In this document: positions 4,030 to 62,230 of the stretch, one piece after another
Layout of the letters: each line of letters begins with the position of its first letter
How positions within the stretch are numbered: the first letter of the stretch is position 1
Source of the DNA: Pyrinomonadaceae bacterium
Lineage (GTDB): Bacteria; Acidobacteriota; Blastocatellia; Pyrinomonadales; Pyrinomonadaceae
Direction of reading: 5' to 3'
Assembly: GCA_014380365.1 (NCBI GenBank)
Contig: JACMJZ010000032.1
Span: 104,860-168,859, forward strand
DNA: 64,000 nt
Notes under the pieces: generated by a model
The model's input: only the letters and a program-made list of their open reading frames with translations
What the model was told of the DNA's origin: nothing
The model's database searches: none
Program-made: the position numbers and the translations under genes

Positions 4030-4105
4030 CCACTAAGACACAAAGACACTAAGGAATCCAAAGTGAAACCCTGGATCTTACCTTAGTGTCTTTGTGTCTT
4101 AGTGG
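4030..4105. repeat. perfect 25-bp inverted repeat (CCACTAAGACACAAAGACACTAAGG / CCTTAGTGTCTTTGTGTCTTAGTGG), 26-nt loop
   Basis: Arms at 4030..4054 and 4081..4105, between convergent genes. Likely a bidirectional terminator or REP-like element. Same word family as 30687..30760. Confidence 0.8.
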
Positions 4106-4112
4106 TCCTGCT

Positions 4113-5129
4113 TTAATTAATCGTAATCGGGAAGGGCACGAAGGAAAGCGCAAAGACGATGAGGGTGATGACGCCGACGACCACGCGTGCGTTGCCTAAA
4201 GGTTCCATCTGCTCCGGCGCTGGATGGCGCACCTTTAACATAACCGCTAGCAGCACCGTGTAAAGAAAACCGCTCGGGCTGCCGTACCAAACATATCCAA
4301 GGACAGACATCACCGCCATGATGATGAAGGCCACTCGCCCAAATAGCTGGTGGAGTCGTTGGCCGAAGACTGAAAACGTTCCGTGCCCGCCATCGAGTTG
4401 ACCCACCGGCATTAGATTGAGGCTCGTAACCAGCAGACCAATCCACGCCGCCATGTAAACCGGATTCGTCAACGCTTCGGCCAGGTTTGCGCCGGTAAAC
4501 TTTGCGATTATGTGGAAAAGCAGCGGGTCGCTAAATATTACTGGACTTTCGTGCTGACGAGCTTCCTGGAGAGTCAGAATCCCTGCGATGGCGAATGGCA
4601 ACAGCGCCACGAACCCCGCCAGCGGTCCTGCCAGACCAATGTCAAATAGCGCGCGGCGCGATGGGATGGGCGATTTCATCTTAATGAACGCGCCAAATGT
4701 TCCCGCCAGGAAAAGTGGTGGGGCAGGAATGAAGAAAGGCAAAGTCGCGCTGACGCCGTAGTAGCGGCAGGCAAGATAGTGACCCATCTCGTGAGCCATG
4801 AGTATTGTCACCAGCGCAACGGAGAAAGTTAATCCTTGAACGAGAATGCCTGGATGGGCAATCGCAAATGAAGCCAAAGCACCAACGATGCGCAGATAGT
4901 AGTCTGGGACATACAGGATATAACTCAGCAAGCCGGACAGAGCGGGTTCCGGCACGTCGATCTCCGGAGCGGCGATTACAATTCCGGCAAACGTCGTCGA
5001 GACAAACGTGACGACGAAAAAGGCAGTGTGTTTGATCCACTCGCGCTGGCTCGGACCTGCGAATTGGTTCCGGCCCGGTACCATGCTTGATCGTCGAGGG
5101 GGTTGAATAACTGGAACTGGCTCTGACAC
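4113..5129 (-). CDS. site-2 protease family (M50) membrane metalloprotease
   Basis: HEMGH (HExxH) inside a hydrophobic segment, a multi-pass membrane profile, and LDGG near the C-terminal part. Confidence 0.85.
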   Translation of the reverse strand: MSEPVPVIQPPRRSSMVPGRNQFAGPSQREWIKHTAFFVVTFVSTTFAGIVIAAPEIDVPEPALSGLLSYILYVPDYYLRIVGALASFAIAHPGILVQGLTFSVALVTILMAHEMGHYLACRYYGVSATLPFFIPAPPLFLAGTFGAFIKMKSPIPSRRALFDIGLAGPLAGFVALLPFAIAGILTLQEARQHESPVIFSDPLLFHIIAKFTGANLAEALTNPVYMAAWIGLLVTSLNLMPVGQLDGGHGTFSVFGQRLHQLFGRVAFIIMAVMSVLGYVWYGSPSGFLYTVLLAVMLKVRHPAPEQMEPLGNARVVVGVITLIVFALSFVPFPITIN

Positions 5130-5219
5130 TCACTACCCTTTTCAAGACTTGAGGCCAGTGTCAGGAAATGAAAGTCCCGACCCTAGCCTCGCAAATTAGT
5201 AACAAGACTGATTTAGATC

Positions 5220-5540
5220 CTAAAGCCCTGAGTCCTCCGCATCGTTGTTTGCTTCTCCACTCACAGCTGAGTCATCGCTTACCTGCAAGTCTTTACCCGG
5301 TTTGAAGCGAATAGTTTTGCCGGACGGAATTGCGACTTCCTCGCCAGTGCGCGGATTGCGGCCCACCCCCCGCTTGCGGGGCTTAACCACAAATACGCCG
5401 AACCCGCGTAGCTCGATCCGTTCACCCCGGGTGAGCGCTTCCTTCATCGAATGGAAAAGGGCATCCACCGCTTGCTCTGCTCGCATCTTTGGAACGCCGG
5501 TCTTCTCCGCCACGCGGTTAATGATGTCCAGTTTGATCAC
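5220..5540 (-). CDS. HU/IHF-family DNA-binding protein with acidic C-terminal tail
   Basis: ELRGFGVFVVKPRKRGVGRNPRTGEEVAIPSGKTIRFKPGK is the classic IHF/HU arm. Confidence 0.9.
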   Translation of the reverse strand: MIKLDIINRVAEKTGVPKMRAEQAVDALFHSMKEALTRGERIELRGFGVFVVKPRKRGVGRNPRTGEEVAIPSGKTIRFKPGKDLQVSDDSAVSGEANNDAEDSGL

Positions 5541-5903
5541 GGCTTAAGCCTCCGTTCGCGTCTCAATGAAAGATTCCAGCTGAGTCGGTGGTGCGGAAGG
5601 GATGATAGAGATGCGTTATGAAGACTGTCAACCGTTGCCGTTGCAATTCTGCGCGCCGATGGGAACTATTAAGTTGTTGATTAAGAGCTGTTAAGAGGAA
5701 ACTGACGGTCGAAGTTTAAATCAAACCGGAACGGGGCACGTTTTCTTCCGACCAACTATACGGACTGATTTCGCTGGAGAGTTAGCTTTGACAAGCAACC
5801 AGTCGAAAGCTAACCTCAAGTTGCAGTTGACTAACGATTATGAGATTGAGCTGGCCCTTGCATAACCGCCCGCGACGGTGCTAACGCCAGGACTTAACAA
5901 GAG

Positions 5904-6605: not shown

Positions 6606-6633
6606 TTGCTTACGGAAGCTGAGAGTTTTTAAG

Positions 6634-7953: not shown

Positions 7954-7957
7954 GGAA

Positions 7958-8042
7958 GGTCCAAAGTCCAAAGGCCAAAGTCCAAAGGCCGGTTTAGCTA
8001 CACTGACATTTGACTTTGGACCTTGGACCTTGGACTTTGGAC
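7958..8042. repeat. imperfect hairpin made of CCAAAGT/CCAAAGG words and their complement
   Basis: Left arm GGTCCAAAGTCCAAAGGCCAAAGTCCAAAGGCC (7958..7990). Right arm GACTTTGGACCTTGGACCTTGGACTTTGGAC (8012..8042). It ends 10 nt before the carA ATG. Confidence 0.7.
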
Positions 8043-8051
8043 AATAGAACG

Positions 8052-9164: not shown

Positions 9165-9177
9165 GCCTGTTCACCAC

Positions 9178-9330
9178 GCGGCAAGCCGCCGCACAGTGCG
9201 GAAAGCCTATGGCTTTCCGGCCAAGCCATCCAACCCAGTCTTTCCTGAGGCTCAGCCTCAGGAAAAGATTCTTGAATTACCCGATACTCGGTAAGGCAAG
9301 CCTTACCGCACTGTGCGGCGGCAAGCCGCA
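9178..9330. repeat. composite nested-hairpin element (closing stem plus three internal hairpins)
   Basis: 17-bp perfect closing stem, 9185..9201 with 9306..9322 (GCCGCCGCACAGTGCGG). Internal hairpins at 9199..9219, 9241..9265 (10-bp stem) and 9290..9307. Lies between convergent carA and the AI-2E gene. Confidence 0.75.
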
Positions 9331-9386
9331 AGCTCGGCCACGGCGGTAATCGCGGTAAGTGAGGCTGCGGGAACGGGGGCTTCTGT

Positions 9387-10694: not shown

Positions 10695-10708
10695 TATTCC
10701 CTGATGAC

Positions 10709-11068: not shown

Positions 11069-11080
11069 TGATCCTTTCAG

Positions 11081-11644: not shown

Positions 11645-11740
11645 GTCAGTACCGCCTGCGGTAGCGGGCGGGTGCCTGTAACGTCAACGACCCACCTGCT
11701 ACCGCAGCTGGACCCACCCGCTATCGCAGGTGGTACTGAC
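11645..11740. repeat. 29-bp inverted repeat of the ACCGCCTGCGGTAGCGGGCGGG family
   Basis: Arms at 11645..11673 and 11712..11740 with 3 transition mismatches, plus a partial third copy in the loop. Same core as 34114..34224. Confidence 0.75.
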
Positions 11741-11753
11741 AAAACCCGCAACC

Positions 11754-26400: not shown

Positions 26401-26593
26401 GCGATGGTGATGGTGAAGGACTTGGTGAAGGACTAGGGGAGGATCCAGGCTGAACCTCTTGAGATGAGGCAGGTGCCGGCGGTAGTAACGCGAGGGAGAA
26501 GGCAGTAAGCAGTAGGCAGAAGGCCGAAGGCAGGAAGAACTTGAAACGCAAAGGGCGCGAAGCAAGACGCAGAGAACGCGAAGCGATCCGCAT
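23384..26593 (-). CDS. sensor histidine kinase: periplasmic beta-propeller repeats plus Y_Y_Y-like region, TM, HisKA_3 and HATPase
   Basis: Repeated WFGT/WIGT/WVAT propeller motifs. H-box RRRIARDLHDQTLADL. ATPase IEDNGRAL...GRGLANM. Signal peptide and (SP)10 linker. Start taken at ATG 26593 (MRIASRSL). Confidence 0.85.
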   Translation of the reverse strand: MRIASRSLRLASRPLRFKFFLPSAFCLLLTAFSLALLPPAPASSQEVQPGSSPSPSPSPSPSPSPSPSPSPTPVTGLHQWGAVTLFHGLPSDRVHAIAQGPEGAMWFGTEAGLAKFDGRRTQTISINGLAPGRVLALQSDADGSLWIGTETGAARMVDGRFEAITEINGHPIAAILTPESGRALLATEQGNIFDCRIQADGSRRTEPLLTQQLQSADRDNPGALQLTSLMMLNHTLFAGSFSRGVLAIADGQAREIETRPTSFFVRSMEADPSGKLWVGLRVKKEEPALLTGWEVEKLVRNETPTGTVTSIKSIGKDVWVATDGRGVFRFSEGKKVQRYTFDGTAGGLRSDHVYTIFQDREDVIWFGTDRGVCRFDPNAVRVETIGDLAESNFVRTFYQTSEGHLLAGTNRGLFVHDASSSEWNPVGGLARNIVYSIAEDNQGRLLVGSASGFYVGTRPSRDTKLESLSFNRVEAGSGNADAVGSIRAITQFRGSVYVASYGRGVERLEESRLQNLWSANLAVPRDVISLFADGDRRLLVGSASDGVLSFDGNEVKQDPAFAKLKGSTVRSILSTLDDTLWFATNRGVYLCKADSECILTAAGIEARSLARDAETKRNEMWCATTGNGLLKIRLDDQAGPVVSQLDVEQGLPSQNVFAVRPESQPDGSESVLIGTGRGIARYQSGRTTPTLYATRVISKRVHSPSELASGLSLEYPQNSLLLDVAAISSRTFPEQFQYSFALLDGNGKVIKQRLSRESQFAMEGLAAGKYRVTARAFSKDLLSSEPLSFELAIAKSPFPWTSTALAILLALALLALIWAILERRRIARTSAALVDANRELADARLNLANEAERERRRIARDLHDQTLADLRHLQLLTDQLPTSGDPGEGERRGQQRNAQPGPAALRSEIESISQEVRRICEDLSPSVLQNVGFAAALEFALSHAVQDAPADQRFEYEFVCDEHLEEHARLPGNVQMQIYRIVQESVSNICRHAGATHVRMEVHAAPNFILTIEDNGRALDPNQKSSGRGLANMLARASLIDAEISWDKLKSGSNVFTLQLKGAGASPPS

Positions 26594-26655
26594 CAATTGG
26601 CGGGCAATTATTCCTTGCGACCTTTGCGGAAAGCTTTGCGTACTTTGCGGTGTGT
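26544..26655. repeat. imperfect hairpin of CGCAAAG-type words spanning the kinase start codon
   Basis: 26544..26592 carries GAAACGCAAAGGGCGCGAAGCAAGACGCAGAGAACGCGAAGCG. 26614..26655 carries CCTTGCGACCTTTGCGGAAAGCTTTGCGTACTTTGCGG. ATG 26593 lies in the loop. Same words as 54054..54127. Confidence 0.55.
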
Positions 26656-26657
26656 TT

Positions 26658-30686: not shown

Positions 30687-30760
30687 ACCACAAAGACACA
30701 AAGACACGAAGGTTTAGTTAAGACTGTATGCTTGTCTTTGTGCCTTCGTGTCTTTGTGGT
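30687..30760. repeat. imperfect hairpin of CACAAAGACAC words
   Basis: ACCACAAAGACACAAAGACACGAAGG (30687..30712) against CTTGTCTTTGTGCCTTCGTGTCTTTGTGGT (30731..30760). Same word family as 4030..4105. Confidence 0.7.
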
Positions 30761-32459: not shown

Positions 32460-32467
32460 AGTCAAGC

Positions 32468-32535
32468 AGTTCAGAGTTCAAACTTTAGTTTGCTCGGTTT
32501 CGCCAAAAGACAAGCTCAAGCTTGAACTCTGAACT
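32468..32535. repeat. 14-bp perfect inverted repeat AGTTCAGAGTTCAA
   Basis: 32468..32481 pairs with 32522..32535. Lies just upstream of the cmk start. Related words (ACTCTGAACT) occur at 45171..45230. Confidence 0.65.
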
Positions 32536-32558
32536 ACTTGAACGAGCCCTACACCAGG

Positions 32559-33245
32559 ATGAATAAGAATCTGATCATTGCTATCGACGGCCCATCCGGC
32601 GCCGGCAAGTCAACCCTGGGCCGCATGCTGGCACGGGCACTTAATCTTCTCTACATTGATACAGGTTCAATGTATCGCGCTGTGGCGCTGGCGGTGATGG
32701 AGTCGAGCCTGAGCGCAAAGGATGATGTGGCGGTAGGCGCTCTGGCTGGTCGTGTCGATATCGACCTCGAGGGCGACCCTGATTCTTTGAGGGTGACTCT
32801 GGAGGGTCGCGATGTCAGCGACGAGATTCGTTCCGAAGAAGTTACTGAGATGTCGTCAATTATCTCAACTATTCCCGCCGTGCGACGTGCAATGGTTGAG
32901 CGGCAACGCGAACTGGGACAGCGTGGCGCGGTGCTAAACGGGCGTGACATCGGCACGGTTGTGTTTCCCGATGCCCACGTGAAGTTTTTTCTCACCGCGT
33001 TGCCCAATGAGCGCGCGGAAAGACGTTTTCATGAGGACCGGACTCAGAATCCGAACGTGGATTTTGAGGAGACGTTTGCAGATATGAAGGAACGCGATCG
33101 GCGTGACTCCACGCGCGCGGATTCGCCGCTGAAGAGCGCGGACGATGCGATCCTTGTCGACTCGACCGGGTTATCGATCGATGAAGTGTTTGAAACGATG
33201 ATGTCGGTCGTCCAGGGGAAGAGCGGGGTCAGGCCCCCTTCCTGA
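32559..33245 (+). CDS. cmk: cytidylate kinase
   Basis: IIAIDGPSGAGKSTLGRMLARALNLLYIDTGSMYRAVAL. The last 6-8 codons and the TGA lie inside the repeat arm 33223..33246. Confidence 0.9.
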   Translation: MNKNLIIAIDGPSGAGKSTLGRMLARALNLLYIDTGSMYRAVALAVMESSLSAKDDVAVGALAGRVDIDLEGDPDSLRVTLEGRDVSDEIRSEEVTEMSSIISTIPAVRRAMVERQRELGQRGAVLNGRDIGTVVFPDAHVKFFLTALPNERAERRFHEDRTQNPNVDFEETFADMKERDRRDSTRADSPLKSADDAILVDSTGLSIDEVFETMMSVVQGKSGVRPPS

Positions 33246-33357
33246 CTGCGAGATTCTCCTACACGAATCTGAGAGCTCGGCTTGAAAGACGTTCAAGCTA
33301 GAATGGAAGAGGAGCGTTACATCATCTCGAAGGTTAGGAAGGCGGGCTTGCCCCCGC
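33223..33357. repeat. MITE-like element, same family as 23279..23407
   Basis: Arms GCGGGGTCAGGCCCCCTTCCTGAC (33223..33246) and GTTAGGAAGGCGGGCTTGCCCCCGC (33333..33357). The ~86-nt spacer begins TGCGAGATT, like the other copy (TTCGAGATT). Confidence 0.75.
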
Positions 33358-33508
33358 TCTTAAACTTATGAAACTCACTAATTTTTCATTTAAACGCGAG
33401 CCAGCGTGGATCTTGTTGTTTTCGCTTGGGCCGGCAGCCCTTGGACTTCTGATCGTCTTGATTGTTTGGTTCATGCGATAGAACAAATCCGCAATTCGAA
33501 ATTCACGT

Positions 33509-35540: not shown

Positions 35541-35606
35541 AGATTAGTTCTATAGTGGCTCGCGAGGCTCTTGAGAATTTTCCCTCTCCCATCTTGAAGT
35601 ACGGTA

Positions 35607-35720
35607 GGACAGACACTCTTGTCTGTCCCGAAGATTGATTGGACAGGATTAACAAGACTCACAAGATTGGAAAAACCATTAAACTGGTTCCCTTATCTTG
35701 TTCATCTTGTTAATCCTGTC
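35607..35720. repeat. two hairpins of GGACAG words
   Basis: GGACAGAC-ACTCTT-GTCTGTCC (35607..35628). A 16-bp perfect stem GACAGGATTAACAAGA (35642..35657) pairs with 35705..35720. Confidence 0.7.
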
Positions 35721-35788
35721 AAATCGTTCCAAGAAACGACAGGCAGGAATGCGAGTCGTACTAAACCACCTTCGCCGGCTCTAGTGTT

Positions 35789-43700: not shown

Positions 43701-44262
43701 AATTGATCTAACCCTGCCGATTAGCGAAAGGTTCTCGTCCGGCGGCTCCACCACCCTGCGCGGATTTGATTTCGAACAGGCTGGCCCGCGGCAGGTAATA
43801 ATTCCGGCAGGGCCGTTTATCGATCAGAATAAGGAACCGGTGATCTTGAATCCCTTCACCGTTCCCGTCGGCGGCAATGCGTTGGCGATAATTAACCTGG
43901 AGGCGCGCATTCCAGTTTCCAAATCGCTGCAAGCAGTTCCTTTCTATGATGGCGGCAACGTGTTTCGGCGGGTGGGCGATTTGTTTGGTAAGAAAGACCC
44001 GGCGGTTGTGCCGCCGGGAGATGTCCTGGCCGCCATAAACGCCGCAAACCTGCGCGCCGCTTGGACGAATACGGTAGGGCTGGGGTTCAGAATTCAGACG
44101 CCCTTCGGCGGCGCCCTCGCCGTGGACTATGGGTTTCTGCTGAATCCGCCGGAGTTTCTGATTCCTCAGCGCGGCCCAGGCGGAATAGCCTACGACGGGA
44201 CGCCCGCCATTTATCGACTGAAGCGAACCCAGCTACACTTTAGATTCACGCAAACATTCTAG
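40765..44262 (+). CDS. bamA: Omp85/BamA-family outer-membrane protein assembly factor (POTRA repeats plus beta-barrel)
   Basis: POTRA-like repeats (IRSIEITFEG..., GDIRLD..., VAAFNIDITG..., LTDIRITGTNKLT..., IAGAEVRGNKIYT...). C-terminal barrel ending RFTQTF. No ATG, GTG or TTG lies in-frame between the repeat element and the signal-peptide core. Confidence 0.8.
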   Translation: MGGSASGMNAVESHGKEGGLAPAGLERHSSSGGKPPFLTCKFAAVAGFHGSGSQQRSSAFSFAVLISILLVAFVSAEAASTFEEYEGRLIRSIEITFEGSPADPGAQAEFLSLLAIVPNTEFSAVGVRDSLQALFVSERVANARVEVFEEGAPKTGPLRLRFVITRQVQIGDIRLDLVAPTGTPVSEDELRARLNLTQPGARLSHQVILRNSDELQVYLRDRGYFNATIETAEQLDPSGTRATVTYKIVPGEQSRVAAFNIDITGFDVNTVRPSLALQPNAPFTREALGQDTNRIRQAVIEQGNLSPLLNEARVERDPEKNQITITLKGVVGPKVNVIVKDFPLSEKTQRELLPVKREGNIDISAIVEGSRRLRNKFQEDGYFFAEVSAVCTVTPPTPEFGENGTSATCETLNPETLTGRNVEIRYEIEPGRRLKLTDIRITGTNKLTFDDVAADLRTQKASAIGLIPFLGYGRGYTSLTLLEQDRRTIDSYMRDIGYRRVQTKVLQGVSVDGESVIITFEVNEGPLTRIAGAEVRGNKIYTDQRLRDQLKTVIGAPFSRSQARADGDRVLALYSREGYLNAQIDFSIVELPKRGDEEQVKLLYTIANEGDKVYVNHIIVNGVTGSDKAMRTKRAAILRVIPLAEGDVLRADRIAESERELYLTDAYRQVIIRTEAAGETISGFKRRDLIIDVEEKKPRVMDYGGGFSTDTGALGLLEISNVNLRNKLRHGAMRLRASRQQQRVRLEYLDPRFARYGERQFAPLGLSLEYSRDSTVTRFFRSAIDRGTMGIVQRLDEEGNALDEFGLRVNEPTINRFTATIETQRVLNSKTRSILFARYSYEDVRLFNLQSLLVRPILEPDRAVRLSRFGVSFVRDTRQRCERGLLGAVSTRDESETGAPGEVCRYNQLDATRGDFFNIDYAVALRQLGGNISFNRMQATYRRYYKLGGLRGTVLAGNATLGLANVFSPRDRNGNGLDEIDLTLPISERFSSGGSTTLRGFDFEQAGPRQVIIPAGPFIDQNKEPVILNPFTVPVGGNALAIINLEARIPVSKSLQAVPFYDGGNVFRRVGDLFGKKDPAVVPPGDVLAAINAANLRAAWTNTVGLGFRIQTPFGGALAVDYGFLLNPPEFLIPQRGPGGIAYDGTPAIYRLKRTQLHFRFTQTF
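40807..40881. repeat. compact copy of the GGAAGG(C/T)GGGCTTGCCCCCGC element inside the bamA-like 5' coding region
   Basis: GGTAAGGAAGGTGGGCTTGCCCCCGCTG (40807..40834) against CAGCGGGGGTAAACCACCCTTCCTAACC (40854..40881). The loop is itself a hairpin, CTTGAG-CGCCAC-TCAAG. Confidence 0.75.
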
Positions 44263-44263
44263 A

Positions 44264-44435
44264 GAGCAGAAGGCAGTAGGCAGAAGGCACTAGGCAGAAG
44301 GCAAAACGCAGAAGGCAAAACGCAGAAGGCAGAGTGCAGATATGATGTGGTTACCTAAAACGCGAAGCTCCTTAGGCAGATTGTTTCGTTCGATCCTGCG
44401 TTCTGCTTACTGCCTTCTGGCTTCTGCCTTCTGCC
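44264..44435. repeat. long imperfect hairpin of GCAGAAGGCA words enclosing the start codon of the SurA-like gene
   Basis: The left arm 44264..44339 holds about 7 tandem 9-11-nt units. The right arm 44396..44435 (CTGCGTTCTGCTTACTGCCTTCTGGCTTCTGCCTTCTGCC) lies in the coding region. ATG 44342 is in the loop. Confidence 0.7.
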
Positions 44436-45088
44436 TTTTACTGCTCACTGCCCACTGCTCACTACCCACTGCTTCCGCCCAGCAGGTGGTCGACAAGATG
44501 GTGGCCACCGTGAACGCCGGCACCCAATCGGGGTGCGACCTTTGCTTAATTACCTATTCTGACCTGCTTTGGCAGCTGGCACTGCAATCAAAAACTTCTT
44601 TGGCCAGCCCAGGTTCAGACGAGCTCAACCGCGCTTTAGAATTGATCATCGATCAGAGACTCATTCTGGAAGAGGCTGAAAAACTGCCTTCCATCGAGCC
44701 GACCGCCGACGAAGTAACGGCCGCCCGCAATCAGTTAGCGCAAACGTTTCCATCGCGCGCGGAATTCCAACTACGCCTACAGCGGGTAGGCCTCACTGCC
44801 GATAAACTCAATCAAATTCTCGAGCAACGCGTCAGAATTGAAAAATATCTCGACTTTCGTTTTCGCAACTTCGTCGTGATCACCCAAACTGAGATCGCCG
44901 ATTATTACAAGGATGTCTACGTCACTCGACTCAAGGCACGCGCGCCCGGCCAAATCGTGCCCACCCTGGAAGACGCGCGCGGCGAAATAGAAAAGGTCCT
45001 CACTGAAGCCAAGATCGAATCTGACATGGATGCTTTTCTCGATAACGCACGCGAGCGCGCGGAGATTGTGATGCTGAGTCCGGTATGA
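44342..45088 (+). CDS. SurA N-terminal-domain-like periplasmic chaperone
   Basis: Signal peptide, then VVDKMVATVN...ELIIDQRLILEEAEKL and DYYKD..., typical of the SurA_N chaperone module. No parvulin domain. Confidence 0.65.
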   Translation: MMWLPKTRSSLGRLFRSILRSAYCLLASAFCLLLLTAHCSLPTASAQQVVDKMVATVNAGTQSGCDLCLITYSDLLWQLALQSKTSLASPGSDELNRALELIIDQRLILEEAEKLPSIEPTADEVTAARNQLAQTFPSRAEFQLRLQRVGLTADKLNQILEQRVRIEKYLDFRFRNFVVITQTEIADYYKDVYVTRLKARAPGQIVPTLEDARGEIEKVLTEAKIESDMDAFLDNARERAEIVMLSPV

Positions 45089-45170
45089 CTACGGATGAGG
45101 TCGACGCACGTGCACGTCCCACAAAGACTACAACGAAAATCAAACTGTCTTGCTTGCATTGGCGACGTTT

Positions 45171-45225
45171 AGAGTACAAGCTTCAGCTTGCGTGTTCTCA
45201 ATCTGCAACCTGAAGGTTGTACTCT
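45171..45225. repeat. 16-bp inverted repeat AGAGTACAAGCTTCAG (1 mismatch)
   Basis: 45171..45186 pairs with 45210..45225, upstream of the patatin gene. Confidence 0.6.
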
Positions 45226-45252
45226 GAACTGCCTGACTCCCAATCCGCAGTT

Positions 45253-50159: not shown

Positions 50160-50486
50160 ATGAGAAAACTAAGATTGTTAACAATGTCTGTGTTCCTGGG
50201 ATTGAGTGCGTTGATGGTATGCGCAAATCAAACCCTCGGGACCAATCTGAACGCGTGCGAGAGGGGCAACAACATCCTCAACGCTAGCGTGGTCAACAAC
50301 TCCATGAACGTAAACACAGCGAATAGCAACTCCGCGAACGCGAACGGAGACAACAACACCTCCATGAACGTAAACGGAGCGAATAGCAACTCCGCGAACG
50401 CGAACGGAGACAACAACACCTCCATGAACGCCAACGGGAGCATTAGCAACTTCTTGAACGCTAATAGGGAGAACAACAACTCCTGA
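50160..50486 (+). CDS. secreted Asn-rich tandem-repeat protein (108 aa)
   Basis: Signal peptide MRKLRLLTMSVFLGLSALMVCA, then NTSMNVNGANSNSANANGDN repeats. The frame is maintained through a 60-nt tandem repeat. Confidence 0.5.
   Translation: MRKLRLLTMSVFLGLSALMVCANQTLGTNLNACERGNNILNASVVNNSMNVNTANSNSANANGDNNTSMNVNGANSNSANANGDNNTSMNANGSISNFLNANRENNNS
50301..50480 (+). repeat. 60-nt tandem repeat x3 (copies 1 and 2 are 58/60 identical, copy 3 diverged)
   Basis: Copies at 50301..50360, 50361..50420 and 50421..50480. TCCATGAACGTAAAC(ACA/GGA)GCGAATAGCAACTCCGCGAACGCGAACGGAGACAACAACACC. Confidence 0.9.
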
Positions 50487-50677
50487 AGGCGAACGAGATC
50501 AGGACCTGAACCAGTAATTCGCCAGAAGCCTGTGCGTCCTTGCTCATTAGGTTTCGGGCCAATGTGACGGCAAAACACGGAGGTCTTAATGACAATCAAC
50601 CGAGAGATACCAAGGGCGATATATCTTCCGAAATATTGCGACAGTATCTCCCCCAACAAGACGAGGAGGGCTTTCAA

Positions 50678-51414: not shown

Positions 51415-52291
51415 AGGTGATAACGAACTAGAGAGTGCTGGTTTTTACTGGCGCACGGTTGACGGCGTAACCGCCCTCGTTTGCGCGCCGCTTGAACAAG
51501 CCGGTTTCACTAACGGATTTTCAACTCGCGGCGGCGGCACGAGCCCCATGCCCGAGAACGCGCTCAACCTCGCCGGTTTCCACGAAGATGCGGCGGAAAA
51601 CATTCTGGAGAATCGCCGCCGCTTTCTCAAGCTTTTTCCGGGCGAGTGGGCGCTGGCCGGGTGTTGGCAGATGCATGGCGTTGACGTTCGCGCTGTGAAG
51701 GATCGCGACGATGCCAAGCCCGCTGAAGACGGGACAGGTGAAACAATCTATTGTGATGCGATCGTCAGCAACGCTCCTCACGTTCTGGCCGGTGTGAAGA
51801 CTGCGGATTGCGTGCCGCTGTTGATTGGCGACCAGCGTACGGGTGCGTTTGCAGCGGTGCATGCTGGTTGGCGTGGCACGTTTGCCGGAGTTGTTTTCTA
51901 CGCGCTGGAGCGGATGGGCCACGAATACGGCGCGCGACCGGAAGATGTAACGGTTGCTATTGGTCCGGCGGCGGCCGCGTGTTGCTACGAAGTGGGTGGC
52001 GAAGTGATTGAAGGATTCAAAGAGCGTTTTGCTGACGCTGATAGCCTTTTAACTCCGACACGCGACGGCCACGCCTGCATCGATCTGCTTAAGGCCAATC
52101 GCGATCAGTTGATCTCATCCGGCGTAGATCCTAAACGGATCTACACAGCTCCGCTCTGCACGATGTGTCGCACGGATCTGTTTTTTTCCTATCGACGCGA
52201 GAAGAAGACGCTGGGGAAGGTTGGGCGGCTGATGTCAGTTGTCGGACGGACGACCGATGACGGCCGACCCGCGTCCGAAGACATTGAATAG
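51401..52291 (+). CDS. pgeF: peptidoglycan editing factor PgeF (YfiH/DUF152 laccase-domain protein)
   Basis: FSTRGGGTS...NLAG, TADCVPLL, AVHAGWRGT and CTMC...FFSYRR. The start is uncertain; ATG 51401 overlaps the divergent acpS start by 14 nt. Confidence 0.85.
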   Translation: METIIGDNELESAGFYWRTVDGVTALVCAPLEQAGFTNGFSTRGGGTSPMPENALNLAGFHEDAAENILENRRRFLKLFPGEWALAGCWQMHGVDVRAVKDRDDAKPAEDGTGETIYCDAIVSNAPHVLAGVKTADCVPLLIGDQRTGAFAAVHAGWRGTFAGVVFYALERMGHEYGARPEDVTVAIGPAAAACCYEVGGEVIEGFKERFADADSLLTPTRDGHACIDLLKANRDQLISSGVDPKRIYTAPLCTMCRTDLFFSYRREKKTLGKVGRLMSVVGRTTDDGRPASEDIE

Positions 52292-52351
52292 ACTTTTGAC
52301 GATCTGGGGATCACCTATCGTCCGTCGGCGGTCATCGGTCGCCGGTCGTAG

Positions 52352-54053: not shown

Positions 54054-54127
54054 GGCTTTGCGGTCTTTGCGCGCTTTGCGGTTTCGCAGTTTGTTTTACC
54101 GCAAAGGACGCCAAGAACGCGCAAAGA
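54054..54127. repeat. hairpin of CTTTGCG/CGCAAAG words
   Basis: TCTTTGCGCG (54064..54073) pairs with CGCGCAAAGA (54118..54127). CTTTGCGG (54074..54081) pairs with CCGCAAAG (54099..54106). Lies upstream of rlmN. Confidence 0.65.
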
Positions 54128-54258
54128 AAGACAGATTCAATCCAGCGAATCCTGAGTCCTGCTATGAAATCACGCGCAGGATGCGCGAGCCACGTGAAAA
54201 AGGGTGAGTGGATCAGTTCGTGATCCATTCACCCTTTGGTTAGTTGTTCCTGGCTGAT

Positions 54259-57152: not shown

Positions 57153-57181
57153 TTAATGTGCTGGAAGCGGTGCCGGCGGTG

Positions 57182-57610: not shown

Positions 57611-57717
57611 TTGCTCAGGATACCTCTCGGCTTAATCGTTCGGGAAGATGCTTCCAGAGTTAGGGATTGTAACCTGTGGCCAGATAAACCAGAAGGACAC
57701 CTATAAAGGACACCTAT

Positions 57718-57925
57718 AGCTGGGAGCGCAGGCATCCTGCCTGCAATGAGCGCGCAGCGCGAATAACTCTGAGATCGTTGCCACATTTCACGTTATCCGC
57801 TCCATTCGTTCGCCAAACTTGACACGTTCCATGACCCTCGTAGAACCTTAATCCAACGGGCCGATCTTGAAACTCGGAGGATGAGACTAACGCGAGTTGA
57901 AGCAGACATGTCTGCGCTCCCAGCT
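57718..57925. repeat. inverted-repeat pair AGCTGGGAGCGCAG(G)CA..TG.CTGC flanking the ligase upstream region
   Basis: 14-bp perfect arms at 57718..57731 and 57912..57925. Each abuts a small palindrome (GCAGGCATCCTGCCTGC, GCAGACATGTCTGC). The interior has TTGACA (57819..57824), 16 nt, then TAGAAC. Confidence 0.6.
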
Positions 57926-57941
57926 GCAGCAAACTTTTTCT

Positions 57942-59627: not shown

Positions 59628-59633
59628 TAGCAT

Positions 59634-59733
59634 CCACAGATTACGCCGATTACACAGATTAAAAACAGAGTTGCCATTAGAGTTTTTATGACTGCCGTCG
59701 GTTTGGAATCTGCGTAATCGGCGTAATCTGCGG
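59634..59733. repeat. 27-bp inverted repeat of GATTACGCC/GATTACACA words (2 mismatches)
   Basis: CCACAGATTACGCCGATTACACAGATT (59634..59660) against AATCTGCGTAATCGGCGTAATCTGCGG (59707..59733). Confidence 0.75.
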
Positions 59734-59815
59734 ATATACATTTTCACCGGCGTTTGTGCTCTAAGCGTATCTTCAATATCATGCGACCCCAGGCGCGGTG
59801 CCCCCAATACAACTT

Positions 59816-61402
59816 ATGAACACTACGAAGACACTCTCGATTTTTACGTTCCTGCTTCTGATTGCGACAACAATGTCCGCCCAGTCTCCCAGAAGGAGAG
59901 GCGGCGTCCGAACGCCTGGTGCGAAGCCCCCAGCTACTCAGCCAGCGAAGCCAGCAGCGCAACCAGCAGCGATACCCGCAGTCACACCCAGGCCCGCATC
60001 CGTGGCGGCGCCAAAGGCCCCGGTCCTGCTGGCGGTTGTGAATGGCCAAAACATCACGACGGCGGATATTGATCCAAGGGTGCGGGAGCTAGTGGAGACT
60101 CTGGACGCGAGAATCGCAGGGGCGCGCAACCAAATCCTGGAGATGGAAATCAACACCTTGCTACTCGCCAGCGAAGCGAACAGGCGAAAGCTAACTCCCC
60201 AACAGTTTTACGATCTCGAGGTCACCAGAAAGATTACTGACCCTCCGGCTGCGGAAGTCGACAAGTTCATCGAGGACAATCGCGAAGAACTCAAGCAAGT
60301 CGATCCGGCGGCGGCGCGCAAACAGGTCGTTGAGTATTTACGTGGCGAACGCGAGGCGGCTATTTCCGCAGCGTTAGTTAAACGTCTTCGCGCCTCAACT
60401 TCGGTGGTCAAGGGCGCTCTCCCCAGTGCTTCGGATTTACCGGCGTCAGCGGTCATGGCAACAATCGGAGGACGCGCCATCACCGCGGGGACCATAAATG
60501 AACGACTCAAGCCCATTGCCTACGACATGCGGGTGAATGCCTACCGTCCGCAACGACAGGCGCTGGATCAGACAATCGACGACATGCTTTTGATCGCGGA
60601 GGCTAACCGGCGTAGCGTCGGGCCCGAGCAAATTATACGCACGGAAATCAGCGATAAAGTGCGCCCGCCCACCGAACAGGAGATAGCCAAGTTTTTCACT
60701 GACAACAAAGCGAGCATGAAGGGCGACCTTGCTTCAGTGCGTGATCAGATTGCGCAGTTCCTACAGGATCAGAATCAGGTTCGACTGGAGGAGGAGCTCT
60801 CCCTGCGGCTGCGCAAAGGCGCGAATATTCGAATACTCCTCTCCGAACCGACACCTCCAGCCCAGGCGGTAAGCGTCGACGACGATCCTGTACGCGGACC
60901 TGCAAGCGCAGCGGTCACCGTCGTCGAGTTTACGGACTTCCAATGTCCTTCGTGCGCCGCCATGCATCCGGTTTTGGAGGAAGTGCTGAAGTCGTACGGC
61001 GCGAAGGTGAGATTTGTCGTGCGGGATTTCCCGCTTGCCATGCACCCTCAGGCGCGGAAAGCGGCGGAGGCCGCGAATGCCGCACATGCTCAGGGCAAGT
61101 TCTTCGAGTATGCCGCGCTGCTTTTCAAACGCCAGAATGCGCTCGATGTTCCTTCACTGAAAAAGTATGCGACGGAACTGGGCCTGGATCGCGTTCGCTT
61201 TGACGCAGCGCTCGATGGGGGAAAGTTTGCCGATGAAGTGCGACATGACGTCGCGCAGGGCGAGTTGTATGGCGTTGGCGCAACGCCCACGATCTTTGTC
61301 AATGGAGTCATGCTCACCGAGTTGACTAGCGAAGGATTGCGAGCCGCGATCGACCGCGCACTCGCAACGCCCAATTCAGCGCCCAAAGTTTCCGCGAAGT
61401 AA
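59816..61402 (+). CDS. exported SurA_N-like chaperone domains fused to a DsbA-family thioredoxin domain
   Basis: Signal peptide MNTTKTLSIFTFLLLIATTMSA. Two SurA-N-like segments. C-terminal VVEFTDFQCPSCAAMHP (CxxC) with the DsbA pattern. Confidence 0.8.
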   Translation: MNTTKTLSIFTFLLLIATTMSAQSPRRRGGVRTPGAKPPATQPAKPAAQPAAIPAVTPRPASVAAPKAPVLLAVVNGQNITTADIDPRVRELVETLDARIAGARNQILEMEINTLLLASEANRRKLTPQQFYDLEVTRKITDPPAAEVDKFIEDNREELKQVDPAAARKQVVEYLRGEREAAISAALVKRLRASTSVVKGALPSASDLPASAVMATIGGRAITAGTINERLKPIAYDMRVNAYRPQRQALDQTIDDMLLIAEANRRSVGPEQIIRTEISDKVRPPTEQEIAKFFTDNKASMKGDLASVRDQIAQFLQDQNQVRLEEELSLRLRKGANIRILLSEPTPPAQAVSVDDDPVRGPASAAVTVVEFTDFQCPSCAAMHPVLEEVLKSYGAKVRFVVRDFPLAMHPQARKAAEAANAAHAQGKFFEYAALLFKRQNALDVPSLKKYATELGLDRVRFDAALDGGKFADEVRHDVAQGELYGVGATPTIFVNGVMLTELTSEGLRAAIDRALATPNSAPKVSAK

Positions 61403-61410
61403 ACCTTTCT

Positions 61411-61995
61411 TCAGTTCGCTTTTTTTCGGGTCAAAATATTACACGCCTCAACCACGCTGGTGGGATCGATAGCCGAGTTTCCTTCGTCGATGTGACGAAT
61501 GATCCCCTCTTTATCGATCACAAAAGTTGCCCGGTTGCCGAACCCCTGCTCTTCGTTGAAGATTCCGTAGTCCTTAACCACGGTGCGTTTGAAGTCACTT
61601 AGTAGCGGAAAGGTGACGCCAATCTGCTTGGCAAACTCGCGGTTAGCGGGAACGCTGTCAACACTGAGTCCAAATACCTGCGTGTCAGTTGCTTCGAATT
61701 TGGCAATACCAGCCTGGTACGCCTGCATTTCCTTCGTTCAACCACCGGTGAACGCCAGCACGTATGCGGCGATCACGACATTCTTCTGACCTTTGAAGTC
61801 GCTCAACTTGTACGTCTTGCCGTCCGTTGCGCGCAGCGTAAAGTCCGGCGCCGGCTGGCCAACCTGCAGGTGCGTCTTCGGCGCCGCCGGCCGAGGCGCG
61901 GGGCTTGCGGCCGGTGACGGCGCGGGCGCTTGCGCAAATGCCGACACGGCAAGAGACGCCAGCAAGACCACCAACGTTAAGGATCTCTTAATCAT
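61411..61995 (-). CDS. exported peroxiredoxin-like (AhpC/TSA-redoxin) selenoprotein, Sec86 encoded by TGA 61738..61740
   Basis: Two same-frame ORFs join through the TGA: ...[42 protein letters not shown]...FPLLSDF...[20 protein letters not shown] lies 7 nt upstream of ATG 61995. Signal peptide present. Confidence 0.8.
61702..61723 (-). promoter_or_regulatory. SECIS-like stem-loop for the Prx-like gene
   Basis: mRNA GGCG-UACCA-GGC-UGGUA-U-UGCC: 9 bp with one bulged U and a G-rich apical loop, starting 14 nt after the UGA. Confidence 0.4.
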
Positions 61996-62149
61996 TCCGA
62001 ATCTCCTCTCAACAGCTTCCGACAAACTTATGGCAAAAAGCTACTTTACAAACGCTTGTCGCAGGATAAACGCTAGCGCGCGGTGGAGCAAGGTCTAGTA
62101 CAATTCGATAGTATCCTGAACTTGAATTGATCGAATTCGAAGCCTGGAC

Positions 62150-62230
62150 CGGGGCACTAGCCCGACCGTCAGGGAGGGCTCTGATCGAGGCATGAGCGGA
62201 GCCCTCCCTGACGGTCGGGCTAATGCCCCG
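62150..62230. repeat. 32-bp inverted repeat (1 mismatch) with a 17-nt loop
   Basis: CGGGGCACTAGCCCGACCGTCAGGGAGGGCTC (62150..62181) against GAGCCCTCCCTGACGGTCGGGCTAATGCCCCG (62199..62230). Lies between the divergent Prx-like and ubiB-like genes. Confidence 0.8.

What the first reader, a model, noticed from the sequence alone, without database searches (positions are those of the whole stretch)
4030..62230. Nearly every intergenic gap holds a long hairpin whose arms are built from short tandem words
At least 18 loci have 14-32-bp inverted repeats: 4030, 7958, 9178, 11645, 23279, 26544, 30687, 32468, 33223, 34114, 35607, 40807, 44264, 45171, 54054, 57718, 59634 and 62150. In many, each arm is itself a tandem of 7-11-nt words and the other arm is the complement. 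Word pairs include CACAAAGACA, CCAAAGT/CCAAAGG, GCAGAAGGCA, CGCAAAG, GATTACGCC/GATTACACA and GGACAG. Several word sets recur at distant loci, so these are dispersed families and not private terminators. They occur between convergent, tandem and divergent genes alike. This density (about one per 3.5 kb) and the word-tandem construction are striking. The annotated genes do not explain them.
Basis: seen in the sequence. Interest (0 to 1): 0.6.

Follow-up and report, generated by a model that had tools for sequence, protein, structure and literature searches.

The report
Three families of dispersed intergenic hairpins
The many hairpins between genes in this soil acidobacterium are real and belong to dispersed repeat families of three kinds, each with a small "parent" gene sitting between the same arms elsewhere in the genome; they look like small mobile DNA, not one-off terminators.

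Summary
The window holds 18 strong inverted repeats against 0.3 in shuffles. The genome (Pyrinomonadaceae, Acidobacteriota) holds 933, of which 95% lie outside coding interiors and only 99 are singletons.

Only about half are word tandems. I sort the hairpins into three kinds, each with gene-bearing copies:
1. REP/REPIN palindromes whose arms flank RAYT tyrosine-transposase genes. This kind is known.
2. Tandem-heptamer hairpins. All 9 PF05635 four-helix-bundle genes (23S-rRNA-IVS/Avd family) in the genome sit between such inverted heptamer arrays.
3. 9-nt-word hairpins. Both GxxExxY nuclease genes sit among these arms.

The CRCARAG-word families and three complex families have no parent gene.

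The evidence favours mobile or decaying DNA over locally selected RNA stems:
- Orthologous gaps within the genus are empty or filled with different families.
- Related four-helix-bundle genes carry related words at unrelated sites.
- One site shows a full cassette, a deletion remnant and a lone arm in different species.
- Sense-strand G·U and A·C mismatches are equal.
- No T-tract follows the stems.

What moves kinds 2 and 3 is unknown, and RNA data could not be obtained. This scan has reported kinds 2 and 3 before on other DNA. New here are their coexistence, fixed arm topology, word anatomy and the correlation with gene number.

The parts
4029..4106 (.). Hairpin with 26-nt perfect arms built of 8-nt words (CACTAAGA/CACAAAGA), lying between convergent stop codons. 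It belongs to the CRCARAG-type word families, for which no parent gene was found.
   Evidence: -48.6 kcal/mol, z -10.0; family listing; no gene-bearing copy
7956..8042 (.). Heptamer-word hairpin (GTCCAAA/GTCCAAG words). It fills the gap from the TPR-gene stop to 9 nt before the carA start.
   Evidence: The same word sits at the orthologous gap in L008, L012, L014, L017, L020, L023 and L086. The family has 63 arrays in the genome. PF05635 cassettes with this word occur in relatives G003 and G008 (L158, L159).
9178..9329 (.). REPIN-like element (GCGGCAAGCCGCCGCACAGTGCGG arms, loop conserved within the family). This family flanks a truncated RAYT-like gene at G000:C7:278139-278693.
   Evidence: family of 78; 54 of 68 loops related
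11645..11740 (.). Complex palindromic element (GTCAGTACCGCCTGCGGTAGCGGGCGGG arms). Same family as 34114. No parent gene found.
   Evidence: related elements fill the orthologous gaps in L113 and L115
23282..23404 (.). Complex palindromic element (GGGGGCAAGCCCCCTTCCTGAC arms). Same family as 33219 and 40807. No parent gene found.
   Evidence: family of 34
26493..26533 (+). Lone heptamer array (AGGCAGA, 5.9 copies) with no inverted partner.
   Evidence: the word is the same as at 44264 and close to the arms of the PF05635 cassette at G000:C7:251127
26546..26656 (.). Degenerate hairpin of CGCAAAG/CGCGAAG words, with CTTTGCG words on the right arm.
   Evidence: sequence read directly; family. It falls below my 16-match threshold.
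30687..30760 (.). Hairpin of 8-nt words (CACAAAGA). Same small family as 4029.
   Evidence: z -6.5
32462..32541 (.). REP-type palindrome (AGTTCAGAGTTCAAACTTTAGTTTGC). Its arms flank a RAYT-like gene at G000:C1:99760-100371.
   Evidence: cluster of 124; 75.7 bits against a cut-off of 80. Copies at 80-88% identity occur in six genus relatives. The orthologous gap is 0-9 nt in L110-L112.
33219..33361 (.). Complex palindromic element of the GAGCGGGGNCAAGCCCGCCTTCC family.
   Evidence: the same family is at the orthologous gap in L108 and the gap is absent in L109-L112
34114..34224 (.). Complex palindromic element (AGAACCGCCTGCGGTAGCGGGCGGGC arms, 97% complementary).
   Evidence: The orthologous gap is 10-27 nt and empty in L108, L109 and L112. 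It holds a heptamer hairpin in L110 and a 9-mer hairpin in L111.
35605..35629 (.). Single GTAG-tagged REP (GTAGGACAGACACTCTTGTCTGTCC). This family flanks a RAYT gene at G000:C5:503972-504649 on both sides.
   Evidence: NF047646, 80.6 bits against a cut-off of 80
35637..35725 (.). Hairpin of 9-nt words (ACAGGATTA/ACAAGATT). These words surround the GxxExxY nuclease gene at G000:C34:155408-155743.
   Evidence: z -8.3; the same words appear in relatives L022 and L111
40807..40881 (.). Complex palindromic element of the GGGGGCAAGCCC...CCTTCC family.
44264..44439 (.). Long heptamer-word hairpin (GCAGAAG/GCAGTAG words, about 10 + 6 copies) starting 2 nt after a stop codon.
   Evidence: the PF05635 cassette at G000:C7:251127 has GGCAGTC/GGCAGGA arms
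45167..45229 (.). REP-type palindrome of the same family as 32462.
52245..52347 (.). Heptamer-like hairpin (GACGGAC/GACCGAT words).
   Evidence: (I20); the PF05635 cassette at G000:C20:46089 has GACGGATGACCGGCGACCG arms
54056..54120 (.). Hairpin of CTTTGCG / CGCAAAG words (8-9-nt steps).
   Evidence: z -2.6, the weakest tested
57719..57764 (.). Single REP unit (GCTGGGAGCGCAGGCATCCTGCCTGCAATGAGCGCG...). Two 46-nt perfect inverted copies of it flank the RAYT gene at G000:C33:105724-106332.
   Evidence: (NF047646, 88.3 bits against a cut-off of 80)
59632..59735 (.). Hairpin of 9-nt words (CAGATTACG/CCGATTACA). The same arms bracket the GxxExxY nuclease gene at G000:C19:21334-21669.
   Evidence: z -8.9; family of 40 with unrelated loops
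62146..62234 (.). Complex GC-rich palindrome (GGGGCANTAGCCCGACCGTCAGGGAGGGCTC arms of 36-41 nt). Large family; no parent gene found.
   Evidence: -84.6 kcal/mol, z -11.6

Best explanation
The hairpins are copies of many dispersed families of small palindromic repeat elements that have colonised the gaps at gene ends in this Pyrinomonadaceae genome. There are three kinds, each with a few gene-bearing copies in which the same arms bracket a small gene.

1. REP/REPIN palindromes whose arms flank RAYT (Y1 tyrosine transposase) genes. For these, mobilisation by the RAYT is the mechanism proposed in the literature.
2. Hairpins whose arms are inverted arrays of a 7-nt word. The gene-bearing form carries a PF05635 four-helix-bundle gene, of the family first found in 23S rRNA intervening sequences and related to Avd.
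3. Hairpins with 9-nt words, whose gene-bearing form carries a GxxExxY (PD-(D/E)XK) nuclease gene.

These steps are shown by the data:
- The families are dispersed.
- The gene-plus-arms design is present.
- Related four-helix-bundle genes carry related words at unrelated sites.
- Sites are filled in some genus members and empty in others.
- One site shows decay in place from cassette to deletion remnant to lone arm.

These steps are inferred:
- Gene-plus-arms units insert into short intercistronic gaps.
- The gene is later lost, leaving gene-less hairpins and lone arrays.
- The arrays are periodic recognition sites (5-6 fixed plus 1-2 free bases per word) for a sequence-specific factor, most likely the encoded protein.
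- When transcribed, the long stems are RNase III substrates, as in rRNA intervening sequences.

The enzyme that moves kinds 2 and 3 is unknown.
For: Reality and dispersal:
- 18 inverted repeats in the window against 0.3 in shuffles.
- 933 genome-wide, of which 46 lie in coding interiors and 99 are singletons.

REP/RAYT:
- Two genes pass the NCBIfam RAYT cut-off and two fall just under it.
- Each is flanked by a different window family.

Heptamer/PF05635:
- 9 of 9 genes in the genome are bracketed by inverted heptamer arrays, each with its own word.
- 44 of 56 cassettes from more than 30 genomes have arms, 37 of them heptameric.
- The fraction of cassette pairs sharing a word falls with protein identity: 1 of 1 at 85% or more, 6 of 20 at 70-85%, 4 of 22 at 60-70%, about 2% below 60%. 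Most of the word-sharing pairs have unrelated flanks.
- Alignment A1 shows a full cassette (L013, L018), an internal-deletion remnant (L009) and a lone arm (L011, L015) at one orthologous site.
- PF05635 gene number tracks heptamer-array density over 16 genomes (Spearman 0.69, p 0.003). For other inverted repeats the figure is 0.40 (p 0.13).

9-mer/GxxExxY:
- 2 of 2 genes are associated with the two 9-mer families seen in the window.

Against locally selected RNA stems:
- G·U and A·C mismatches on the sense strand are 89:96 and 291:290.
- No T-tract follows the stems.
- Orthologous gaps are 0-27 nt when empty and hold different families when filled.

Constraint on words:
- In GTCCAAN, 94 of 175 non-consensus letters fall at position 7.
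- The 9-mer core C.GATT is invariant.

Topology is fixed within a family in 93 of 94 hairpins.
Against: - No movement was seen between near-identical genomes. The closest relatives are only about 80% identical in coding DNA.
- I saw no obvious target-site duplication in the flanks printed, but I did not search for one systematically.
- Loops are unrelated within most families, so whole elements are not simply copied.
- PF05635 proteins have no known catalytic activity.
- The largest heptamer family (GTCCAAA) has no cassette in this 95%-complete genome.
- Matching of words between cassettes and gene-less arrays, genome by genome, is untidy.
- The CRCARAG families and three complex families have no parent gene.
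- The correlation is confounded: genomes without the gene are poor in repeats generally, and relatives are not independent.
Confidence: 0.68

Rival explanations
1. The word arrays are binding sites for a host factor. The arrays were recruited as periodic binding sites for the four-helix-bundle proteins or another host protein. These would act on the transcripts or on DNA, for example in RNA processing or stability between cistrons or in nucleoid organisation. Selection for that function would maintain the hairpins, not selfish spread. This partly overlaps with the best explanation.
For: - Words have fixed and free positions.
- Words are kept at orthologous sites over divergences at which neutral DNA should be randomised, for example GTCCAAN upstream of carA in nine species and the RGATG core in G000 against L156.
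- All words of both arms change together along the protein tree.
- The hairpins favour co-directional gaps.
- Word hairpins lie between tRNA genes.
- RNase III cuts the heptamer stem of the Coxiella intervening sequence (PMC4990558).
Against: - There is no excess of sense-strand G·U pairs.
- Different families occupy the same gap in different species, and many species have an empty gap.
- Genomes without PF05635 genes do without such hairpins.
- Families persist without a cognate gene in the genome.
Confidence: 0.2
2. The hairpins are private terminators or 3'-end stabilisers. Each would have evolved in place as a transcription terminator or mRNA 3' protector, and word tandems would arise by replication slippage.
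For: - Stems are strong.
- The median distance to the upstream stop codon is 25 nt, and 443 of 641 hairpins in co-directional gaps are closer to the stop than to the next start.
- Hairpins are depleted in divergent gaps.
Against: - 834 of 933 belong to multi-copy families.
- Among the 10 nt after each stem, 3-4 T is the most common count, and 102 of 933 stems have 6 or more.
- G·U equals A·C.
- Several hairpins end 9 nt before the next start codon, so they cannot be followed by a promoter.
- The same arms bracket genes elsewhere.
Confidence: 0.07
3. The hairpins are made in place by mutation bias alone. Slippage of tandem words plus template switching within quasi-palindromes would create and maintain them at each site without any transfer between sites.
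For: - Arms are about as complementary when shifted by one word (0.86) as in register (0.91), so each arm behaves as an independent array of one word.
- Mismatches are strand-symmetric.
- Copy number varies between orthologues.
Against: - Dozens of loci share the same 7-nt or 9-nt word and the same topology (93 of 94).
- Period 7 outnumbers period 8 by 443 to 8.
- Free and fixed word positions are not expected from slippage.
- Cassettes with related genes carry related words at unrelated sites.
Confidence: 0.04
4. The repeats are an assembly artefact created by the assembler.
For: None found.
Against: The same designs occur in 80 independent assemblies of relatives from different projects, including multi-megabase contigs and a complete chromosome.
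Confidence: 0.01

Closest known systems
REP/REPIN elements with RAYT transposases (Di Nocera et al. 2013, PMC3733652)
   Same: - They are short palindromes in high copy, extragenic, often paired in opposite orientation, and mostly between co-directional and convergent genes.
- Several families here carry a GTAG or GTGG tag.
- RAYT genes are flanked by their own repeat.
- About half of the window's hairpins fit this description.
   Different: - The word-tandem hairpins have no RAYT.
- Their gene-bearing copies hold a four-helix-bundle or a PD-(D/E)XK gene instead.
- Their arms are periodic arrays, not a single imperfect palindrome.
ORF-bearing intervening sequences of 23S rRNA (Coxiella burnetii, Leptospira; Warrier et al. 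2016, PMC4990558)
   Same: - The same gene family (PF05635, 'S23p') lies in the loop of a long stem.
- The stem contains tandem heptamers whose copy number varies between strains.
- There, RNase III cuts within the stem at the first repeat.
- This genome has an RNase III gene.
   Different: - Here the cassettes and their gene-less forms lie between protein genes and tRNA genes, not in rRNA.
- There are nine cassettes with nine different words, plus more than 130 gene-less hairpins.
- Excision was not tested.
Unexplained intergenic heptamer repeats: Xanthomonas GGGAATC and Nostoc GGGGAYT (Rehm et al. 2015, PMC4692102); Geobacter metallireducens heptanucleotide elements (PMC2700814); TAACTGA in Beggiatoaceae, cyanobacteria and Bacteroidetes (PMC4679880)
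   Same: - They are tandem heptamers, intergenic and close to or overlapping stop codons.
- In Xanthomonas, 70-75 are convergent inverted pairs with the G-rich repeat first on each strand. That is the topology found here.
- They are reported as transcribed in Xanthomonas.
   Different: - Those papers treat one word per genome and explain it by G-quadruplexes or translational control.
- In the passages I searched, none of them links the repeats to a PF05635 gene.
- Here there are dozens of words, most of which cannot form quadruplexes.
Ssn nucleases and their NTS/SRM repeats (Chenal et al. 2025, PMC11893778)
   Same: A small nuclease gene is associated with, and specific for, a short repeat present in hundreds of copies. 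This is the nearest printed parallel for the GxxExxY/9-mer pair.
   Different: - The fold differs: GIY-YIG there, PD-(D/E)XK here.
- No small GIY-YIG gene exists in this genome.
- Cleavage by GxxExxY proteins is untested.
MITEs (miniature inverted-repeat transposable elements)
   Same: - They have terminal inverted repeats, carry no gene, occur in many copies, and have an autonomous relative.
- Four families here have conserved interiors.
   Different: - In most families the loops are unrelated.
- I saw no obvious target-site duplication in the flanks read.
- No DDE transposase is associated.

Membership tests
REP/REPIN-RAYT | Short (20-40 nt) imperfect palindrome, in high copy, extragenic | tested here: met
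   Family clusters of 12 to 152 copies. Density is 0.011 per kb in coding DNA against 0.7-1.3 per kb in gaps.
REP/REPIN-RAYT | Unpaired GTAG (or CGTC) tag at one end | tested here: inconclusive
   The tag is present in GTAGGACAGG..., GTGGCACGGG... and (CA)GTAGCCCGACCG... It is not evident in GCTGGGAGCGCAGGC..., GAGCGGGGGCAAGCC... or AGTTCAGAGTTC... This was judged from the sequences only.
REP/REPIN-RAYT | A RAYT gene flanked by copies of the family's own repeat | tested here: met
   - C33:105724-106332 scores 88.3 bits (cut-off 80) and lies between 46-nt perfect arms.
- C5:503972-504649 scores 80.6 bits and lies between GTAGGACAGG doublets.
- C1:99760-100371 (75.7 bits) and C7:278139-278693 (48.5 bits, truncated) are each flanked by a different repeat family.

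REP/REPIN-RAYT | The word-tandem hairpins (7-, 8- and 9-nt words) belong to this family | tested here: not met
   None of the seven Y1-transposase loci is flanked by word arrays. Their gene-bearing copies hold PF05635 or PF13366 genes.
23S rRNA intervening sequence with S23p ORF | A PF05635 ORF in the loop of a long stem containing tandem heptamers | tested here: met
   9 of 9 genes in the genome. 37 of 56 in the wider sample have heptamer arms.
23S rRNA intervening sequence with S23p ORF | Inserted in helix 9, 25 or 45 of the 23S rRNA gene | tested here: not met
   Protein-coding sequence adjoins the cassettes read, and the window has no rRNA. I did not inspect the genome's own 23S gene.
23S rRNA intervening sequence with S23p ORF | Excised from the transcript by RNase III | not testable with these tools
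   An RNase III gene is present.
Intrinsic (Rho-independent) terminator | G+C-rich stem followed directly by a T/U tract | tested here: not met
   In the 10 nt after each stem, 3-4 T is the most common count. Only 102 of 933 stems have 6 or more T on either strand.
Structured RNA under selection for pairing | Excess of G·U over A·C non-Watson-Crick pairs on the transcribed strand | tested here: not met
   89:96 for periodic arms and 291:290 for the others, in co-directional gaps. No Rfam family matches in the window.
MITE | Terminal inverted repeats plus a conserved interior, copied as a unit | tested here: not met
   Loops are related in 0 of 40, 0 of 31, 0 of 27, 2 of 20 and 0 of 8 members of the main word and complex families. 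The feature is met only in four families, with 54 of 68, 12 of 15, 8 of 10 and 6 of 6 related loops.
MITE | Target-site duplication | not tested
   I did not search for duplications systematically. None was obvious in the flanks printed. Relatives are too diverged for base-level alignment of filled against empty sites.
Ssn-type nuclease with cognate repeat | A small GIY-YIG nuclease gene framed by the repeat | tested here: not met
   There are only two GIY-YIG hits, in open frames of 629 and 323 aa.
GxxExxY (PF13366/TIGR04256) repeat-armed cassette (noted by this scan; I found no paper describing it) | A GxxExxY gene lying between inverted arrays of a short word, with gene-less copies elsewhere | tested here: met
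   - C19:21334 lies between CTATCCGCAGATTACGCCGATTACACAGATT arms with 27 of 31 matched.
- C34:155408 lies among ACAGGATTA/ACAAGATT arrays in a less regular layout.
- Gene-less families have 40 members and more than 10 members.

The most novel reading that the evidence does not exclude
The 7-nt word arrays are periodic, sequence-specific recognition sites (about six fixed bases and one free base per step) for the four-helix-bundle protein encoded between them. Gene plus arms would then form a mobile cassette of a kind not described, with no known transposase. The cassette seeds gene-less hairpins as it decays. The GxxExxY nuclease with its 9-nt words would be a second, parallel system. If so, three long-unexplained things would be one phenomenon: ORF-bearing rRNA intervening sequences, the dispersed heptamer repeats of cyanobacteria, Xanthomonas and Geobacter, and the large 'four helix bundle protein' family. 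The fixed arm topology, with the G-rich word leading on each strand, would be a trace of how the arms are made.
Probability: 0.3. Interest if true: 0.85.

Novelty: new variant of a known kind. Interest (0 to 1): 0.62.

Why it matters
Dispersed palindromic repeats with a cognate gene are understood for only one case, REP with RAYT. This genome carries that case side by side with two others whose cognate genes are a four-helix-bundle protein and a small PD-(D/E)XK nuclease. Both are large families of unknown function.

All nine four-helix-bundle genes here are armed, and there are more than 130 gene-less heptamer hairpins and 16 comparable genomes. That makes Pyrinomonadaceae a good place to test three questions:
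- What these proteins bind.
- How the arms are made and kept alike.
- Whether rRNA intervening sequences and the heptamer repeats of cyanobacteria and Xanthomonas are the same thing.

For annotators the practical points are:
- Such hairpins inflate ORF calls at gene starts.
- They can supply stop codons and C-terminal tails.
- They should not be called terminators.

Tried and rejected
- **Rfam.** No family reaches its gathering score in the window.
- **Terminator reading.** Rejected on the missing T-tract and the family structure.
- **RNA-structure reading.** Not supported by the G·U against A·C test.
- **Mirror duplication.** I tested whether each hairpin's two arms are true mirror copies. 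In register they are only slightly better than when shifted by one word (0.91 against 0.86), and the best register was chosen as the maximum. I therefore dropped 'born as a perfect palindrome' for the heptamer class.
- **One cassette per word family.** Matching is only partial: 72 of 131 gene-less hairpins lie within one mismatch of a cassette word, against roughly a quarter expected by chance. The genome-by-genome matching is untidy.
- **Other cargo genes.** ORFs inside long-spaced arm pairs turned out to be ordinary neighbours lying between two separate elements (GtrA-like, DinB, a response-regulator-like ORF and others), apart from PF05635, PF13366 and the Y1 transposases.
- **Small GIY-YIG (Ssn-like) gene.** None found.
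- **Telomerase-like addition of words at a break.** I considered this to explain the arm topology. The only reverse transcriptase in the genome is fused to a protease domain and looks like a defence gene, so there is no candidate enzyme. The idea remains speculation.
- **Filled against empty sites.** The nearest genomes are about 80% identical in coding DNA, so base-level alignment was not possible.

Full report
**What is there**

The window is G000:C8:104860-168859 of a 4.98-Mb, 34-contig genome with 55% G+C. Relatives found with its CarA protein are all Pyrinomonadaceae/Blastocatellia (Acidobacteriota) metagenome-assembled genomes.

The repeat finder shows inverted repeats at 16 of the 18 listed loci. 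The other two are single REP stems. My own census required arms of at least 14 nt, at least 80% complementarity, a loop of at most 120 nt and at least 16 matched pairs. It gives 18 in the window against a mean of 0.3 in 20 dinucleotide shuffles. Eight hairpins folded at -30 to -85 kcal/mol, with z-scores from -2.6 to -11.5.

Genome-wide there are 933 such repeats. With an approximate gene call (3,616 ORFs covering 85% of the genome), only 46 lie in coding interiors. That is 0.011 per kb, against 0.7-1.3 per kb of gap. Clustering the arms leaves 99 singletons. The rest fall into families of up to 152 members. The observation and the claim of dispersed families are confirmed.

**How much is word tandem**

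About half of the window's loci have periodic arms. Genome-wide, 170 of 933 arms are strictly periodic, against 1 of 933 shuffled arms. Period 7 is special: there are 443 arrays of three or more units. The counts for other periods are 8 for period 8, 45 for period 9, 3 for period 10 and 1 for period 11.

With a looser cut there are 696 heptamer arrays. At least 156 of them form inverted pairs of the same word, and 131 of those have spacers of at most 120 nt.

**Kind 1: REP/REPIN with RAYT**

The genome has seven Y1-transposase hits. By NCBIfam, two pass the cut-off for REP-associated tyrosine transposase: C33:105724-106332 at 88.3 bits and C5:503972-504649 at 80.6 bits, against a cut-off of 80. 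Two are just under or truncated, and two are IS200-like.

Each is flanked by its own repeat:
- The C33 gene lies between 46-nt perfect arms, GCTGGGAGCGCAGGCATCCTGCCTGCAATGAGCGCGAAGC. This is the unit at window 57719.
- The C5 gene lies between GTAGGACAGGCATTCCTGCCTGTCC doublets (window 35605).
- The C1 gene lies between ...GTTCAGAGCTCAAACTTTAGTTTGC arms (window 32462 and 45167).
- The truncated C7 gene lies between CCGCACAGTGCGGCGGC elements (window 9178).

This matches the published description of REPs and RAYTs (PMC3733652). Three further complex families in the window have no parent gene in this assembly: 11645/34114, then 23282/33219/40807, and 62146.

**Kind 2: heptamer hairpins and PF05635**

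While comparing the gap upstream of carA in relatives, I saw that two of them hold a 'four helix bundle' gene between word arrays. The genome itself has nine PF05635 genes. All nine are bracketed by inverted heptamer arrays, each with a different word: AGATGCY, AATCAGC, GTTTCRA, GGTGYCR, GGCAGKM, CAGARRT, GTCAGTR, GACSGVY and AATGATG. The nine proteins are only 22-50% identical to each other.

In a wider sample of 56 cassettes from more than 30 genomes of the family, 44 have inverted arms and 37 have clear heptamer arms. PF05635 genes occur in 54 of 61 genomes sampled, at 0 to 22 copies each.

**Evidence that gene and arms travel together**

Among armed cassettes, the fraction of pairs sharing a word (at most one mismatch) falls with protein identity:
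- 1 of 1 at 85% identity or more
- 6 of 20 at 70-85%
- 4 of 22 at 60-70%
- 1 of 42 at 50-60%
- 4 of 196 at 40-50%

Most of the word-sharing pairs lie at sites whose flanks are unrelated by tblastx. Examples are L168/L173 and L169/L173 (CATTTGW), L158/L159 (GTCCAAW) and G000:C15/L163 (GTCAGTR). Within a protein clade the words drift together, for example GTGACAG, GTGATAA and GTAAATA. All words of both arms therefore change in concert.

**Evidence for decay in place**

At the gap between the TPR gene and carA, the relatives form a series (alignment A1):
- L013 and L018 hold a full cassette. Its left arm starts at the host stop codon.
- L009 keeps both arms and the last 60 nt or so of the ORF, but lacks about 330 nt of the interior.
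- L011 and L015 keep only the left arm.

The window and eight other species have a GTCCAAN hairpin at the same gap. Others have different words, a REPIN or nothing.

In the conserved hemN-cmk-p197-ribBA stretch, gaps are 0-27 nt when empty. When filled they hold different families in different species of the genus.

**Kind 3: 9-nt words and GxxExxY**

One arm pair of the CAGATTACG family encloses a 130-aa ORF that is a PD-(D/E)XK_3 / TIGR04256 'GxxExxY' protein. The genome has two such genes. One lies between CAGATTACG arms, which is the family at window 59632. The other lies among ACAGGATTA/ACAAGATT arrays, which is the family at window 35637.

**Properties that any mechanism must explain**

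1. Topology is fixed within a heptamer family in 93 of 94 hairpins. The leading (5') arm is the G-rich strand in 98 of 128 gene-less hairpins and in 28 of 37 armed cassettes. This is the 'convergent' arrangement reported for Xanthomonas GGGAATC repeats (PMC4692102).
2. Words have fixed and free positions. In GTCCAAN, 94 of 175 non-consensus letters fall at position 7 (chi-square p about 1e-46). In the 9-mer, the core C.GATT is invariant.
3. Mismatches in the stems show no excess of sense-strand G·U over A·C (89:96 and 291:290), and no T-tract follows the stems.
4. The two arms are hardly more complementary in register (0.91) than when shifted by one word (0.86).
5. Loops are unrelated within most families, although four families have conserved interiors.
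6. Heptamer hairpins favour co-directional gaps (0.19-0.26 per kb) over convergent gaps (0.105) and divergent gaps (0.034). Half of the stop-side distances measured for periodic-arm hairpins are 10 nt or less. Closeness to stop codons largely follows from insertion into very short gaps.
7. Over 16 genomes of the family, PF05635 gene number correlates with heptamer-array density (Spearman 0.69, p 0.003) and with heptamer hairpins (0.68). It correlates less with other inverted repeats (0.40, p 0.13). The four genomes without the gene are repeat-poor overall, and relatives are not independent, so this is supportive only.

**Interpretation**

The hairpins are best read as small, mostly gene-less palindromic repeat elements of three kinds. 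They occupy the permissive space at gene ends.

For REPs, the literature proposes mobilisation by RAYTs. For the heptamer and 9-mer kinds, the data show a gene-plus-arms unit found at unrelated sites, decay in place to gene-less hairpins and lone arrays, and constraint on the word sequence. I infer that the arrays are periodic recognition sites for the encoded protein. I also infer that the long stems are cut by RNase III when transcribed, as shown for the Coxiella intervening sequence, which has the same gene family and tandem heptamers in its stem (PMC4990558). The RNase III gene is present here.

What catalyses movement is unknown. No movement between near-identical genomes could be examined. 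Loops do not behave as in copy-and-paste elements. I weighed four rival readings, and they fit the counts less well:
- arrays recruited as host binding sites
- private terminators
- generation in place by mutation bias alone
- assembly artefact

**Relation to earlier work**

I found the PF05635 link and the GxxExxY link before looking up the scan's notes. Those notes show that both cassette designs were reported before on other DNA, and that later checks rated the 'mobile element' reading at 12-50%.

The papers I read describe heptamer repeats, ORF-bearing intervening sequences, REP/RAYT and Ssn/NTS separately. My full-text searches found no paper linking heptamer hairpins to PF05635 genes or 9-mer hairpins to GxxExxY genes.

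- All three systems coexist in one genome.
- All nine PF05635 genes are armed.
- Words and proteins diverge together at non-orthologous sites.
- One site shows the series from cassette to remnant to lone arm.
- Arm topology is fixed and G-rich-leading.
- Words have fixed and free positions.
- Stem mismatches are strand-symmetric.
- Gene number correlates with array density.

Noticed in passing
G000:C5:279000-282300 (outside the window): A tRNA gene cluster has word hairpins (GTCCAAA, GTTTCGA, CAGAGGT and CCTCAGT words) between successive tRNA genes. These hairpins must be part of the tRNA precursor transcript.
   Followed up: partly
window 50294-50495: A tandem repeat of period 60 nt (30-nt sub-period), 3.4 copies at 85% match, lies inside the 108-aa ORF 50160-50486.
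   Followed up: no
G000:C5:5450-7111 (locus L206 951-2612): The only RVT_1 hit in the genome is a 553-aa reverse transcriptase fused to a trypsin-like protease domain (GHSGGP motif). It looks like a defence-type reverse transcriptase.
   Followed up: partly
L009, L011 and L015, roughly positions 5850-5900 (gap upstream of carA): In these relatives the TPR gene reads into the GGCAGTA heptamer array. The array supplies the gene's last residues (...SRQEAVGSRQ) and its stop codon.
   Followed up: partly
L193 and L204 (other genera of the family): Two PF05635 cassettes have arms built of 9-nt words (AGTCTGGCG, AAGTCTAGG), not 7-nt words. Word length is therefore not strictly tied to the gene family.
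   Followed up: no
window 40765-40881: The hairpin at 40807-40881 lies inside the longest-ORF call 40765-44262. The true start of that 1,165-aa gene is therefore probably downstream of 40881.
   Followed up: no
window 57693-57718: A perfect 13-nt direct repeat (AAGGACACCTATA, two copies) lies directly before the REP unit at 57719.
   Followed up: no
window 54199-54237: A short hairpin (AAAGGGTGAGTGGATCA, 5-nt loop) has no family resemblance to the others. It may be an ordinary local stem.
   Followed up: no
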